In this document: piece after piece, positions 1 to 6,000 of the stretch
Position numbering within the stretch: the first letter of the stretch is position 1
Layout: the number at the start of each line of letters is the position of its first letter
Origin: Escherichia coli
GTDB taxonomy: Bacteria; Pseudomonadota; Gammaproteobacteria; Enterobacterales; Enterobacteriaceae
Length of the DNA stretch: 64,000 nt
NCBI RefSeq assembly: GCF_030384885.1
Contig: NZ_CP128613.1
Strand: one strand, 5' to 3'
Program-made: the position numbers

Positions 1-3000
1 TGGCGGAATACACTTCATCAATACAGGTACCAAACGGCGTTAACCCGTTGTCACTAAATTGCAGTCGCTCGCCAGCAAGGCGCGCATATTTATCGTATAG
101 CCCCATTATTTATTCTCCAGCCATGGAAGTAGAGTTTCCATTAATTGCGCAGGGGTTTTGACATCCAGCAGAATATTAATAGGAATGGAAATATCGAATC
201 TGTCTTCCAGCATCATTAAGAGATCCATCACTTTGATCGACTCCAGGCCAAGATCGTTGACGAGATCGCTGTCGGGCTTAATTTCCACACCGTTTTCGAC
301 CAAATCCTGTAAACAGGAAAGGATGTAATCCATTACTATTTCACGATTTACCATAGAAACGTTAACACACCTTTAAACAAGACAATCAAAATAGCCCGTT
401 GCGTAATGCGTGTTCCAGGCTAATCCCGGGAAACCAATTAATATCTTCAGAAATACGGTTATTACTTGCTGACCAGTCGGTGTGGGTTAATTCACGGATT
501 TTCGAGCGGGTCAGCATAGGTTCTTTACCTGCCAGGCGACTCAACGCGGTACTGATATCCGCAAGGCAGGTGAGTACCGACAGAGGAATACCAACCATTC
601 GAACGGAACCGCAACGGGCGTCGGCGGCAAGTTGCTGTACGCGTTGCCAGTCATAGCCGCCGGCGACGCCATCGCATAATTCATAGGTTTGCGTCTGTAC
701 AGTTTCGGCGCTTAACCACTGCCCCACGGCTTGCGCGAAATCGGTGACGTGCAGGAAAGAGAGCTGTGTATCTGGCGCACCAAGTCGTGGCAGCAGGCCG
801 CGCAGCATCCAGTCAAACAGCGGTTTTAACTCTTTATCGCCGGGACCATACACGGCTGTCGGGCGAAAAATGCCCAGCGTAATTTCGTCAGCCATTGCGG
901 TCAGTCGTTGTTCGGCGACGTGTTTGGAATTTGCGTACCAGGAGAGTTCGGGATGGCGCGCCGCCAGCGAAGAGATAAACAGAAAACGTTGGCAAAAGCC
1001 GCTCTCTTTTGCCGCTTGCATCAGGCGCAGGCTGCCGTCAACGTTACAGCGGGTAAAAATCTCTTCTTTGTGTCCGCGCACTTGCCCGGCGCAATGGACC
1101 ACCGCGCTGGCTCCGGCAACCAGTTCGCTAAGCGAATGTGTATCTTCCAGCGAACCGCGCACCCAGATGAGATTATCATTGACGTGAGCGCGGGCAGTAC
1201 GCGTCAATGCGCGAACGTGAAAGCCGCGGGCGAGCAGGTTATCGATAATATATTTACCGATAAACCCGGTAGCGCCCGTCACCGCGACAGTTTGATTCAT
1301 GCCATTGATTCCTGCACATGAAGGCTTGCAGCATAACGTTTTTTCGCTTCCGCACGGGCAGGCTTGCCGGAGGACGTTCGGGGAATACTGTGGGGCGGCA
1401 ACAGATCGATAGCCGCTGTTACGCCAAATTCGCTTTGGATCCGTGCTGCCAGTGCGTGGATAAGCTGCCCACGACGTTCTTCGTCGCTGATCCTACACTG
1501 GATCTGCAAAATGATTTTTTCCTGGGCGGTAACAAAAGCAATCGCATCGCCAGAATGAATTTCCGGTTCCTGTTCCGCAATATATTCAATATCCTGCGGC
1601 CAGATATTACGGCCACGAATAATAATCAGATCTTTAATGCGCCCGGTGACATACAGATAACCGTCCAGCAGATAACCGAGGTCGCCGGTATCTAACCAGC
1701 CCGTCGCGGCAATCTCGTCTTGCGAAACCTGGTCGCCAAAGTAACCGCTCATCAGGCTGGGGCCGGAGATGCAAATATGGCCTACCACACGTTCCGCGAC
1801 TGGCATACCTGCTTCATTGCGGATTTCAATGCCATGTTCCGGCAACGCTTTACCGCAGTTGACGAAAGTCGATACGGCGCGTGTTTCAGCACCCGGCGTG
1901 ACGGCTTTGCCCTGATATTCAAGAATGTCGCGATCCACTTCGTTAACCACAACCCCGGAGGCTTCATCAGAGAAGCTGACAGCCAGCGCATTTTCTGCCA
2001 GTCCGTAGCACGGCATGAAAGTTTTATCGTCAAAGTTAACCTGACGGAAACATTCAGCGAATTGATGGAGTTGTTCTGCGGAGATCGGCTCAGCACCAAT
2101 ACCAGCAACGCGCCAGCAGGAAAGATCCAGTTCAGCGAGATCTTTTTCATTCACGCGGCGCTGGCACAATTCATAGCCAAACGGCGGCGCAACGGAAACG
2201 GTGCCGCGATTTTTACTGATCAATTTAAGCCATTGCAGAGGACGCATGGCAAAATCCTGAGTGCGCAAATAATCTACTGAGAGCTGCGTGGCGACGGGGG
2301 TCAGGAGAAAGCCGACCAGTCCCATATCATGGTAGAAAGGCAGCCAGGAGACGCAGCGGTCGCCAGGGCGTAATTTAATGCCATCGTGGCTTATAGCACG
2401 TAGATTAGCCATCACTTCGCGATGGGTGATAATGACGCCACGGGGAAAACGGGTGCTGCCGGAGGTGTACTGGAGGTAGGCGATATCGTTCGGAACTGGA
2501 CGCTGGAGTACAACATCGGCTTCCGGTAATGCCTTAAACCAGGCGTGGCTTAAAACATGTAATTCGGGGTTGTTATGCGTAGCAGCATTGACCAGTGGCA
2601 ACCACTCATCACCAGTGATAATGGCTGCGGGCTGGCAACTTGCCAGTAGACCCTGCAGTTTGGCGCTCCAGGAATCCCGCTGACCGACGCCCATTGGAAT
2701 TGCCAACGGGACGGCGACTAAGCCGGCATACTGGCAGGCAAAAAAAGCCTCTACAAACCCGCTACTCGTTTCGGCAATCAGCGCCACGCGATCGCCTTTT
2801 TTCAGATTCAGTGATAACAACCGCTTCGCACCAGCTTCGGCACGCGCTTTTAACGTCTGATATTCCAGTTGATCTTCAAGTTGGCAACGTCTGTCATAAA
2901 AATTCATTCCGGCGCTACTCAGAGCGGCGTAGTCCAAAGCATCAACCAGCGTTGGAAAATCGGCATAGCGCATAGGTAGGGAATGCGTAAAGATGTTATT

Positions 3001-6000
3001 AGACATATACACCACGAAAAAAATTGGATATCAGAAATAAAATGACAATAATGCGGTGGATTATATAGGCATAAAAGATAAATGAGATAGTATTTTCATC
3101 GGTGCGATATTGAACATTGATTTAAATAATAGGTTTGGCTTTGTTGTTTTTATTGTGAATGATATTTAATTTATGAATATATTAAGAAGAAGCCTTGTTT
3201 GGTTGCCTTAAATCGACAAAAGGCATTGAGGCGCTTCTGTGTAGTCTCTGACCTTATCTTAATTATTAATAAATACTATTTATTCTTTGTTTGTATTCAT
3301 TGGGTTGATTATTAAGATGCCGTTCGTTGCTGTTGCAATCTGTTTGTCACCGTTAATTATTTGTTATCCACAGAGATATGGAATGCGATCTGCTGATGAT
3401 TAAAATTGAAAAAGTAATTAATAAAAATGACATTAAGGCATTTATCGCTTTTCCGTCATCACTTTATCCCGATGATCCAAACTGGATACCCCCTTTGTTC
3501 ATTGAACGCAGCGAGCATTTGTCGGCGAAGAATCCGGGGACGGACCATATTATCTGGCAGGCGTGGGTAGCAAAAAAAGCGGGGCAGATAGTCGGGCGGA
3601 TTACCGCGCAAATCGATACCTTGCACCGCGAGCGTTACGGTGACGATACCGGTCATTTTGGCATGATTGACGCCATTGATGATCCGCAGGTTTTTGCCGC
3701 TTTGTTTGGCGCAGCGGAAGCATGGTTGAAGTTACAAGGTGCCAGTATGATCAGCGGGCCTTTCAGCCTGAATATCAATCAGGAAAGCGGATTACTGATT
3801 GAAGGTTTCGACACTCCGCCCTGTGCGATGATGCCGCACGGTAAACCGTGGTATGCCGCGCATATTGAACAATTGGGTTATCACAAAGGTATTGATTTAC
3901 TGGCGTGGTGGATGCAACGAACCGATCTCACTTTCTCTCCGGCGCTAAAAAAACTGATGGATCAGGTACGCAAAAAGGTGACCATTCGTTGCATCAATCG
4001 TCAGCGGTTTGCTGAAGAGATGCAGATCCTGCGTGAGATTTTCAACTCTGGCTGGCAGCACAACTGGGGATTTGTGCCGTTTACCGAACATGAATTCGCT
4101 ACCATGGGCGATCAACTAAAGTATCTGGTACCGGACGATATGATCTACGTCGCTGAGATTGGTTCTGCACCCTGCGCGTTTATTGTCGGCTTGCCGAACA
4201 TCAACGAGGCGATTGCCGATCTGAACGGATCGCTCTTTCCCTTCGGCTGGGCAAAATTGCTGTGGCGCTTAAAAGTCAGCGGTGTGCGAACTGCGCGAGT
4301 GCCGCTGATGGGCGTGCGTGACGAGTATCAGTTCAGCCGCATCGGCCCGGTGATTGCGCTGTTATTGATTGAAGCCTTACGCGATCCGTTTGCTCGCCGG
4401 AAGATCGATGCGCTGGAAATGTCATGGATCCTCGAAACCAATACAGGCATGAATAACATGCTGGAACGCATTGGAGCGGAGCCGTACAAGCGTTACCGAT
4501 TGTATGAAAAGCAGATTTAATACCAGATCCCATTAAGCGCACGGACGGTCATTCGGGAGAGTGTATAGATGAACAGATTTAACATCAGATCCTATTAAGC
4601 GCAGGGGCGGTCCCCTCGCCCCTCAGGGAGAGGGTTAGGGTGAGGGGGAAAACTCGGCTCACATTCCCCCCTTGTTCATCTCCAGTGGCACCGCCGAGCG
4701 AATCAAATGGTGGCCTTCCAGTTCGATATCGTGGAGATTCTTTTTCACGGTCCGCACATGATCACGTGCGGCGCGCTGGGCGACGTGCGGCAGTCGCTGC
4801 AACACCGCGTTGTAGATCCGCGCATGTTGGCGATCGATCTGCTTTTTTTGCTGTGGTCGATGGTAGAGATTATTTACGCTGGCAAACACTGAATTAAACA
4901 TCAGATCGGTCAATGATTGCAGCGTAAAAACTAGCACCTGATTGTGGGAAGCCTGACAAATGGCAAGATGGAAAGCATGATCCAGCTGCGCGTGTTCGAT
5001 CAGCGAAATTTCTTTGTTGTTTTCACTGGCGGCGAGCATTTTTTCATAACAGCGGGTTATCAAAACAAAATCCGCCTGGGTTCCCAGCGTAGCTGCCAAC
5101 CTTGCCGATTCGCCTTCCAGCAATGCGCGAACGTCGAGTAGATCGTATAGCGTTCGCGGCTGTGTACTGAACAGATGGATCAGCGGGCTGGTGTCCTGCA
5201 CGCGATTAAGGCGTGCGACACGAGAATCGCGCCCCTGTGCTGTTTCAATAATCCCGCGTCCGCGCAGCACGGTCAGCCCTTCACGCAGTGCGGAACGCGA
5301 GAAGCCGAGCTTTTCACACAGTCGACGCTCCGAAGGAAGCGGCTGACCGACCTTCAGCACGCCGTCGATAATTAACCGTTCGATACTCTCTGCAACCACT
5401 TCGCAAATAGGGCGACGTTCATCTTTCATTCCCGGACCTCGTGCACAGGTAGGACCAATTTTTCTGTTCTTGATTCGCAAAACACGCACATCACGTAAGT
5501 GATTATGTTACATCAATTTAACATTAAGTTAACCAAGGCAAGGTCACAGAGCTGGAAAAAAAATGGTCTGACCGGTAGCTAAAGAGATAGACGAAAACGA
5601 AAAGCCCGCTTAATAACTGTTCACAGAAGCAGCGCGCAAAAATCAGCTGCCACACAACACAACAAAGCGAACCCTACTCATGAGCATCTTGTACGAAGAG
5701 CGTCTTGATGGCGCTTTACCCGATGTCGACCGTACATCGGTACTGATGGCACTGCGTGAGCATGTCCCTGGACTGGAGATCCTGCATACCGATGAGGAGA
5801 TCATTCCTTACGAGTGTGACGGGTTGAGCGCGTATCGTACGCGTCCATTACTGGTTGTTCTGCCTAAGCAGATGGAACAGGTGACGGCGATTCTCGCTGT
5901 CTGCCACCGTTTGCATGTACCGGTAGTGACCCGTGGCGCAGGCACCGGACTTTCTGGCGGTGCGCTGCCGCTGGAAAAAGGTGTGTTGTTGGTGATGGCG

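What the first reader, a model, noticed from the sequence alone, without database searches (positions are those of the whole stretch)
1..3015. FAAL-reductase-ACP acyl cluster upstream of an intact yghO
An operon encoding a fatty acyl-AMP ligase-type adenylase, an SDR with a YxxxK motif (possible thioester reductase) and a dedicated ACP, plus at least one more gene beyond the window edge, lies divergent from yghO. FAAL + ACP + reductase is the minimal logic for loading a fatty acid onto a carrier and releasing an aldehyde or alcohol, or handing it to an acyltransferase. In K-12 this neighbourhood is recalled as replaced or disrupted by IS5.
Basis: partly seen in the sequence, partly recalled or inferred. 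Interest (0 to 1): 0.55.

Follow-up and report, generated by a model that had tools for sequence, protein, structure and literature searches.

The report
Known E. coli sphingolipid (ceramide) synthesis operon
These genes are the already described E. coli ceramide (sphingolipid backbone) synthesis cluster, which most E. coli strains carry and K-12 lost to an IS5 insertion; the reductase is a lipid keto-reductase, not an aldehyde-releasing thioester reductase.

Summary
Window 1-3015 (minus strand) carries a fatty acyl-AMP ligase, a 304-aa extended SDR and an 82-aa ACP. A fourth gene starts at base 106 and runs off the window edge. An intact yghO lies divergent from them. In K-12, IS5 has replaced this stretch and the first 12 codons of yghO.

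The fourth gene is spt (serine palmitoyltransferase). The cluster is the published E. coli sphingolipid locus, studied in BL21(DE3) as ECD_02850-02854: aasR, an SDR gene called epi or cerR, acpR and spt, with yghO as the candidate ceramide synthase.
- **ACP:** 100% identical to BL21 AcpR.
- **Ligase:** it is EcFAAL (PDB 3PBK), shown in vitro to load this ACP.
- **Pathway:** co-expressing the three E. coli proteins AasR, AcpR and SPT gives 3-oxo-sphinganine.
- **SDR:** it resembles NDUFA9 and CerR, not a thioester reductase or a sugar epimerase.
- **YghO:** its model has a tandem-GNAT fold, and its distant homologues sit in sphingolipid loci.

Still open: the E. coli SDR and YghO have not been assayed, and I found no report of a native E. 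coli sphingolipid. Verdict: real, ordinary, already known.

The parts
1..106 (-). 5' end of spt (serine palmitoyltransferase): the first 35 codons. The rest lies beyond the window edge.
   Evidence: The translation MGLYDKYARLAGERLQFSDNGLTPFGTCIDEVYSA continues into the RefSeq gene spt of the 100% identical record. The full protein scores 599.9 bits on NCBIfam NF047599 (cutoff 500). Its best PDB matches are Sphingomonas serine palmitoyltransferases 2JG2 and 2X8U, E about 1e-112 to 1e-110. It is 98.2% identical to BL21 ECD_02854, which makes 3-oxo-sphinganine.
106..354 (-). acpR: dedicated acyl carrier protein (82 aa, phosphopantetheine serine S39 in DLGLESI).
   Evidence: Matches ACP profiles, all below their cutoffs. 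It is 100% identical to BL21(DE3) ECD_02853 (WP_000248097.1). That protein carries 4'-phosphopantetheine and works with the cognate E. coli ligase in vivo (PMC9386255); direct loading of EcACP by EcFAAL is shown in PMC8460268.
386..1300 (-). cerR/epi-like extended SDR (304 aa), inferred 3-keto reductase of the sphingoid backbone.
   Evidence: GATGFIG at residue 9 and YANSK at residue 122. Pfam Epimerase 82 bits. Several of the best PDB matches, and the largest group of hits, are NDUFA9-type complex I subunits. 96.7% identical to ECD_02852, which is 34% identical to Caulobacter CC_1164 (E 7e-38). 33% identical to the SDR of the syntenic metagenomic cluster L004.
1297..3015 (-). aasR = EcFAAL: fatty acyl-AMP ligase acting as an acyl-ACP synthetase (572 aa from GTG 3015, or 569 aa from ATG 3006).
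   Evidence: PDB 3PBK at 1274 bits, near identity. NF006624 at 873 bits against a cutoff of 600. The CoA-excluding and alternative-pocket residues T83, P107, W224, M231, T252, R258 and F279 are all present. EcFAAL loads EcACP in vitro.
3016..3377 (.). Divergent intergenic region between the aasR operon and yghO, presumed to hold both promoters.
   Evidence: 362 bp at 29.8% GC. The consensus promoter scan found no more sites than chance, so no promoter is mapped. K-12 has lost this region.
3378..4520 (+). yghO: intact homologue of bacterial ceramide synthase (bCerS / aca, CC_1154), a tandem-GNAT N-acyltransferase.
   Evidence: No Pfam or NCBIfam hit. AlphaFold2 model with pLDDT 94.7; best Foldseek matches are tandem GNATs 2WPW, 5KF1, 7Q3A and MshD. 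Published 44% identity to CC_1154, E 1e-107. Homologues at 34-45% identity lie next to spt, ACP, SDR, FAAL and LptF/G genes.

Best explanation
This is the E. coli version of the proteobacterial dihydroceramide (sphingolipid backbone) pathway. The operon aasR-cerR-acpR-spt is read on the minus strand, and the divergent yghO is the bCerS homologue. Step 1: AasR (EcFAAL) adenylates a free long-chain fatty acid and, because it cannot use CoA, transfers it to the phosphopantetheine arm of its own carrier AcpR. This is shown for the E. coli proteins in the literature. Step 2: Spt condenses acyl-AcpR with L-serine to give 3-oxo-sphinganine, also shown for the E. coli proteins. Step 3: YghO N-acylates the amino group. 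This is inferred from homology, fold and conserved gene neighbourhood. Step 4: the SDR reduces the 3-keto group with NAD(P)H to give dihydroceramide. This is inferred from homology to CerR. The order of steps 3 and 4 is disputed even in Caulobacter. Genes just outside the window probably modify or export the lipid: lptF/lptG paralogues, the yghQ flippase-like gene and yghR/S/T.
For: The sequence is identical to an annotated E. coli record whose next gene is spt. Spt passes the NCBIfam equivalog cutoff and matches solved SPTs. The ligase is EcFAAL 3PBK with all FAAL-specific residues. The ACP is 100% identical, and the others 96-98% identical, to BL21 ECD_02851-02854. PMC9386255 shows that AcpR_Ec carries phosphopantetheine. 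It also shows that AasR_Ec, AcpR_Ec and SPT_Ec together make 3-oxo-sphinganine, and it names ECD_02852 and yghO as the reductase and N-acyltransferase candidates. EcFAAL loads EcACP in vitro. The SDR is NDUFA9-like, as reported for CerR. YghO models as a tandem GNAT. The same five-gene layout recurs around a 38%-identical YghO homologue (L004), and other distant homologues sit beside spt or among FAAL, SDR, lipid kinase and LptF/G genes. A 2026 preprint draws the E. coli UTI89 locus as a sphingolipid locus.
Against: The E. coli SDR and YghO have not been assayed. I found no report of a sphingolipid in wild-type E. coli; ceramide-like spots were seen only on over-expression. Caulobacter CerR is reported to be periplasmic, yet the E. 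coli SDR starts its Rossmann motif at residue 9 and has no room for a signal peptide. In this strain the neighbouring lptF paralogue carries a 1-nt deletion, so the full system may be impaired here. No promoter could be identified.
Confidence: 0.9

Rival explanations
1. One reading: FAAL loads a fatty acid on the ACP, and the SDR acts as a thioester reductase that releases a fatty aldehyde or alcohol.
For: The SDR has a Rossmann motif and YxxxK. It gives weak partial hits to NAD_binding_4 and TIGR01746.
Against: TIGR01746 scores 41 bits against a cutoff of 213 and covers only residues 4-36. Epimerase and NmrA profiles score far higher. No thioester reductase appears among the PDB matches; NDUFA9-type proteins lead. 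The acyl-ACP has a demonstrated consumer, Spt, encoded 1 nt downstream. The SDR is the homologue of Caulobacter CerR.
Confidence: 0.03
2. The identification is right, but in E. coli the locus is a silent or decaying remnant that makes no lipid under natural conditions. This would hold particularly in this strain, where the lptF paralogue is frameshifted.
For: I found no report of a native E. coli sphingolipid. The spacer is AT-rich (29.8% GC), a composition typical of silenced loci (the silencing itself is inference). K-12 lost the locus without obvious cost. About 490 further genomes hold only part of window 1-4600. There is a 1-nt deletion in the lptF paralogue. In Caulobacter, loss of lptF2 is tolerated only when anionic sphingolipid is not made.
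Against: All five biosynthetic ORFs are intact here and in 4089 of 5426 complete genomes. They are also conserved across many Enterobacterales genera at 65-80% identity, which argues for purifying selection. The BL21 proteins are active when expressed. The lptF deletion lies beside a G6 run and could be an assembly error.
Confidence: 0.25
3. The alpha-oxoamine synthase makes a different product from another amino substrate, for example a CAI-1-type hydroxyketone signal or a sulfonolipid precursor, so the cluster is not for sphingolipids.
For: The family includes CqsA, cysteate acyltransferase, BioF and Kbl, all of which appear as weaker hits.
Against: The protein passes the SPT equivalog cutoff (599.9 against 500), while the CqsA-type model scores 224 against 428. 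SPT_Ec incorporates L-[14C]serine into 3-oxo-sphinganine.
Confidence: 0.03

Closest known systems
E. coli BL21(DE3) ECD_02850-ECD_02854 (yghO/aca, aasR, epi, acpR, spt), Padilla-Gomez et al. 2022, PMC9386255
   Same: Same locus, same gene order and same chromosomal position between glcC and the lptG paralogue. The ACP is 100% identical, Spt 98.2%, the SDR 96.7% and the FAAL about 97%.
   Different: Allelic differences only: 10 substitutions in the SDR and a 4-aa deletion (YQKA) near the FAAL C-terminus. In the source strain the neighbouring lptF paralogue is frameshifted.
Caulobacter crescentus ceramide synthesis genes CC_1162-CC_1165 plus CC_1154 (spt, acpR, cerR, aasR, bcerS)
   Same: The same five functions. 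Published identities are 44% (bCerS/YghO), 34% (CerR/SDR) and 42% (AasR). LptF/LptG paralogues and a flippase-like gene also lie nearby.
   Different: The E. coli locus shows no cpgABC-type head-group genes such as a DAGK_cat ceramide kinase, and no lptC2. It has yghR/S/T P-loop proteins and a YtfJ-family protein instead. The final lipid and the native activity are unknown.
EcFAAL, PDB 3PBK, with its partner EcACP (Patil et al. 2021, PMC8460268)
   Same: The window ligase is this protein (1274 bits, about 98% identity), with all the pocket residues that reject CoA and accept holo-ACP.
   Different: The structural papers treated it as a model FAAL without assigning a pathway. No 'sphingolipid' term occurs in PMC8460268.
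NRPS/PKS terminal thioester reductase (R) domains and carboxylic acid reductases
   Same: A Rossmann-fold extended SDR with a Tyr-Lys catalytic pair, encoded near an adenylase and a carrier protein.
   Different: The profile match fails (41 against 213 bits, N-terminal 33 residues only). The protein is stand-alone and only 304 aa long. Its nearest solved relatives are NDUFA9-type.

Membership tests
Fatty acyl-AMP ligase (FAAL) | Profile membership above the curated cutoff | tested here: met
   NF006624 scores 873.4 bits against a cutoff of 600. The acyl-CoA ligase models are all below their cutoffs.
Fatty acyl-AMP ligase (FAAL) | CoA-excluding elements: bulky W224, M231 and F279, the FAAL-specific helix T252-R258, and alternative-pocket residues T83 and P107 | tested here: met
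   All are present at these positions in the 572-aa numbering. The residue list comes from PMC8460268. The protein is about 98% identical to 3PBK.
Fatty acyl-AMP ligase (FAAL) | Transfers acyl-AMP to holo-ACP, not to CoA | not testable with these tools
   Shown for EcFAAL-EcACP and, in vivo, for AasR_Ec with AcpR_Ec.
Specialised ACP of sphingolipid synthesis (AcpR) | Small ACP encoded immediately upstream of spt, with a phosphopantetheine serine | tested here: met
   82 aa, S39 in DLGLESI, and its stop overlaps the spt start. It is 100% identical to AcpR_Ec, which labels with beta-[3H]alanine.
Serine palmitoyltransferase (Spt) | Equivalog profile above cutoff, with solved SPTs as the closest structures | tested here: met
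   NF047599 scores 599.9 against 500. 2JG2 and 2X8U match at E about 1e-112 to 1e-110. Only 35 codons lie in the window; the rest was read from L001.
CerR (bacterial ceramide reductase) | Homology to CC_1164/CCNA_01222, NDUFA9-like extended SDR with an NAD(P) site | tested here: met
   96.7% identical to ECD_02852, which is 34% identical to CC_1164 at E 7e-38 (published table). NDUFA9-type subunits are among the top PDB hits and form the largest group. GxxGxxG and YxxxK are present. The Caulobacter sequence itself was not aligned here.
CerR (bacterial ceramide reductase) | Encoded in an operon with spt, acpR and aasR | tested here: met
   The same order is found in L004 and L006.
CerR (bacterial ceramide reductase) | Reduces 3-oxo-(dihydro)ceramide or 3-oxo-sphinganine; periplasmic location as reported for Caulobacter | not testable with these tools
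   The activity is not assayed for the E. coli protein. There is no room for a signal peptide, because the Rossmann motif starts at residue 9, whereas Caulobacter CerR is reported to be periplasmic.
Thioester reductase (R) domain | Match to TIGR01746 / PF07993 over the whole domain | tested here: not met
   TIGR01746 scores 41.3 bits against a cutoff of 213.35 and covers residues 4-36 only. PF07993 gives fragments of about 20 bits against 82 bits for PF01370.
Nucleotide-sugar epimerase/dehydratase | Match to the GalE, RmlB or RmlD equivalogs | tested here: not met
   GalE scores 28.8 against 262, dTDP-glucose dehydratase 23.3 against 365, and RmlD 19.6 against 224. All matches are N-terminal only.
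bCerS (bacterial ceramide synthase, GNAT type) | Homology to CC_1154/CCNA_01212 | tested here: inconclusive
   44% identity at E 1e-107 is published for the BL21 orthologue. The nearest E. coli database clusters are 98% identical.
bCerS (bacterial ceramide synthase, GNAT type) | GNAT acyltransferase fold | tested here: met
   AF2 model with pLDDT 94.7 and pTM 0.91. Top Foldseek hits are tandem GNATs at E 1e-14 to 1e-11. There is no Pfam hit by sequence.
bCerS (bacterial ceramide synthase, GNAT type) | Conserved linkage to spt and other sphingolipid genes across distant taxa | tested here: met
   Seen in L004 (38% identity), L005 (34%), L007 (45%), L008 (44%) and L006 (80%).

The most novel reading that the evidence does not exclude
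Most wild E. coli strains, but not K-12, may natively make a ceramide-based lipid from this locus under conditions not yet tried, and deliver it to the outer membrane through the adjacent LptF/LptG paralogues. That would explain why decades of K-12 lipid work never saw a sphingolipid. The head group would differ from Caulobacter, because no cpgABC-type genes are present. The literature already raises this idea; what would be new is the demonstration and the structure.
Probability: 0.4. Interest if true: 0.55.

Novelty: already known. Interest (0 to 1): 0.15.

Why it matters
The locus is a reminder that K-12 does not represent the species. About three quarters of complete E. coli genomes carry a full set of ceramide synthesis genes that K-12 lost to IS5. 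The practical open question is whether pathogenic and commensal E. coli ever display sphingolipids, which could affect outer-membrane properties, polymyxin sensitivity and host signalling. That question is already posed by the groups working on bacterial sphingolipids. This window adds only one more allele.

Tried and rejected
- **Promoter and terminator scan of 1-4700:** it gave fewer sites than shuffled controls, so nothing could be said about regulation.
- **Sequence profiles for YghO:** Pfam, NCBIfam and PDB sequence searches found nothing. Only structure prediction and gene neighbourhood were informative.
- **Word-indexed homologue searches:** these listed only close Enterobacterales relatives and no Caulobacter protein, so direct alignment to CC_1154 and CC_1164 was not possible. 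I relied on the published table and on distant metagenomic loci.
- **P0248 look-up:** the contigs had no DNA held.
- **Stankeviciute et al. 2022 (PMC8891067):** this paper is not held.
- **Literature searches for a native E. coli sphingolipid:** nothing relevant came back.
- **yghR/S/T as ceramide kinase:** I considered this because these genes are annotated as dTMP-kinase-like. The Caulobacter kinase CpgB is a DAGK_cat/LCB5-type enzyme, so there is no support.
- **Genome-contig scan for taxonomic distribution:** not run, because the answer would not change the verdict.
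Full report
**What is in the sequence**

The minus strand of window 1-3015 holds three complete ORFs and the start of a fourth.
- The adenylase is at 1297..3015 (572 aa from a GTG; RefSeq starts it at the ATG at 3006).
- The SDR is at 386..1300 (304 aa).
- The carrier protein is at 106..354 (82 aa).
- A gene whose ATG overlaps the ACP stop (TAATG) runs off the window edge after 35 codons.

The adenylase stop and the SDR start overlap as ATGA, so the four genes look like one translationally coupled operon. yghO (3378..4520, plus strand) lies divergent across a 362-bp spacer of 29.8% GC.

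The stretch is 100% identical to E. coli 2013C-4282. At least 80% of window 1-4600 is present in 4089 of 5426 complete E. coli genomes. In K-12 an IS5 element sits between a truncated yghQ and yghO. The first 12 codons of K-12 yghO are IS5-end sequence.

**The missing gene and the wider locus**

Reading 9 kb further in the identical record (L001) shows that the gene beyond the edge is spt.
- Its product passes the NCBIfam serine palmitoyltransferase equivalog (599.9 bits, cutoff 500).
- Its best solved relatives are the Sphingomonas SPTs 2JG2 and 2X8U.

Beyond spt lie lptG and lptF paralogues, a YtfJ-family gene, a hypothetical gene, the yghQ flippase-like gene and yghR/S/T. K-12 has lost everything from the C-terminus of yghQ to the 5' end of yghO.

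**The adenylase and the ACP**

The adenylase is EcFAAL. It matches PDB 3PBK at 1274 bits with near identity and passes the FAAL subfamily cutoff (873 against 600 bits).

The residues that the structural work identifies as excluding CoA and forming the alternative phosphopantetheine pocket are all present. These are T83, P107, W224, M231, T252-R258 and F279.

The ACP is 100% identical to BL21(DE3) ECD_02853, with the same RefSeq protein accession. EcFAAL has been shown to load EcACP in vitro (PMC8460268).

Padilla-Gomez et al. (PMC9386255) reported three further results:
- AcpR_Ec carries 4'-phosphopantetheine.
- AasR_Ec works with AcpR_Ec but not with the Caulobacter ACP.
- Co-expression of AasR_Ec, AcpR_Ec and SPT_Ec yields 3-oxo-sphinganine.

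**The SDR**

It has GATGFIG at residue 9 and YANSK at residue 122, so the YxxxK observation is correct. It does not fit a thioester reductase:
- TIGR01746 gives 41 bits against a cutoff of 213 and aligns only residues 4-36.
- Pfam NAD_binding_4 gives fragments of about 20 bits, against 82 bits for Epimerase.

It does not fit a sugar epimerase or dehydratase either, since GalE, RmlB and RmlD are all far below cutoff.

Its highest-scoring curated profiles are lipid-related reductases or lipid-pathway-associated SDRs: HpnA, OleD 2-alkyl-3-oxoalkanoate reductase and sterol SdmB. Several of its best solved relatives, and the largest group of hits, are NDUFA9-type complex I subunits. That is the relationship reported for Caulobacter CerR.

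It is 96.7% identical to ECD_02852. ECD_02852 is 34% identical to CC_1164 at E 7e-38 (published table). The best reading is a 3-keto reductase of the sphingoid backbone. This is inference for E. coli, because no assay exists.

**yghO**

Sequence profiles find nothing for YghO. An AlphaFold2 model built on 51 diverse homologues is confident (pLDDT 94.7, pTM 0.91). Its best structural matches are tandem-GNAT acyltransferases (2WPW, 5KF1, 7Q3A, MshD; E 1e-14 to 1e-11).

The family is large, with 1083 representative clusters at E up to 1e-30. Its distant members sit in sphingolipid contexts:
- **L004 (38% identity):** the identical layout, with yghO divergent from FAAL-SDR-ACP-aminotransferase. 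All five proteins are 33-53% identical to the window set.
- **L005 (34%):** the gene directly follows the aminotransferase gene.
- **L008 (44%):** the gene lies among FAAL, SDR, a phosphopantetheinyl transferase, a DAGK_cat lipid kinase, two LptF/LptG genes and an ABC transporter.
- **L007 (45%):** the gene lies beside a fatty acid hydroxylase and an LptF/G gene.
- **L006 (a Serratia-type locus):** it keeps the E. coli operon.

This independently supports the published assignment of yghO as the homologue of Caulobacter bCerS/CC_1154 (44% identity).

**Mechanism and caveats**

The inferred pathway runs as follows:
1. AasR converts a free fatty acid to acyl-AMP.
2. The acyl chain is transferred to AcpR.
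3. Spt condenses it with serine to 3-oxo-sphinganine.
4. YghO N-acylates the amino group.
5. The SDR reduces the keto group, giving dihydroceramide.

Steps 1-3 are shown for the E. coli proteins. Steps 4 and 5 are inferred. Their order is disputed even in Caulobacter, where localisation data favour acylation first.

Several caveats remain:
- Caulobacter CerR is reported to be periplasmic, yet the E. coli SDR has no space for a signal peptide.
- I found no report of a native E. coli sphingolipid. Only over-expression gave ceramide-like spots.
- No promoter could be assigned.
- In this strain the lptF paralogue has a 1-nt deletion next to a G6 run. In Caulobacter, such a loss is tolerated only when anionic sphingolipid is not made.

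**Comparison with what is known, and verdict**

The locus is described gene by gene for BL21(DE3) in PMC9386255. The ligase-ACP pair is a structural and biochemical model system. RefSeq already names the genes. A 2026 preprint draws the E. coli UTI89 locus, with its LptF/G paralogues, beside those of Caulobacter and Sphingomonas.

The finding is real and correctly located, but it is already known. What remains open is whether E. coli ever makes the lipid, and what its head group is.

Noticed in passing
window 5680-10200 (glcD-glcB) and 1-4600: The source strain is unusually divergent here. The glc segment is only about 95% identical to nearly all other complete E. coli genomes, with 1 record at 99% or more. 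Region 1-4600 is about 96.5% identical, with 8 records at 99% or more. This could be a divergent lineage labelled E. coli or a recombined segment.
   Followed up: partly
L001 5754-6823 (outside the window, 2 genes beyond spt): The lptF paralogue next to the sphingolipid operon has a 1-nt deletion relative to BL21 (a C lost after a G6 run, position 282) and is annotated as a frameshifted pseudogene. It may be real decay or an assembly error.
   Followed up: partly
window 1297-1360 (C-terminus of the FAAL): This allele lacks four residues (YQKA) that are present in 3PBK and BL21 near the C-terminus, and it carries about ten substitutions.
   Followed up: no
window 1-10200: About 850 of 5426 complete E. 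coli genomes give no megablast match to either the sphingolipid/yghO stretch or the glc segment. About 490 more hold only part of 1-4600, as K-12 does. One genome (NZ_LR536430.1) matches only the first 64 bases, which lie in spt.
   Followed up: no
window 3016-3377: The divergent spacer between the operon and yghO is 29.8% GC, against about 52-56% in the flanking genes. That composition is often associated with H-NS silencing. The consensus promoter scan found nothing above chance.
   Followed up: partly
window about 14600-31000 and 38400-49900: The rest of the window carries sslE with the gsp-beta type II secretion operon. It also carries a group 2 (kps) capsule locus next to tRNA-Phe, with IS110 and IS3 remnants. 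These are ordinary accessory features of non-K-12 E. coli.
   Followed up: no
L008 (metagenomic contig, 3.1 Mb) 5185-18344: A YghO homologue at 44% identity sits in a locus with FAAL, SDR, a phosphopantetheinyl transferase, NTP_transf_3, Metallophos, DAGK_cat, Tam41-like and two LptF/LptG genes plus an ABC transporter. This looks like a fuller, Caulobacter-like sphingolipid locus. No spt was seen within 10 kb.
   Followed up: no
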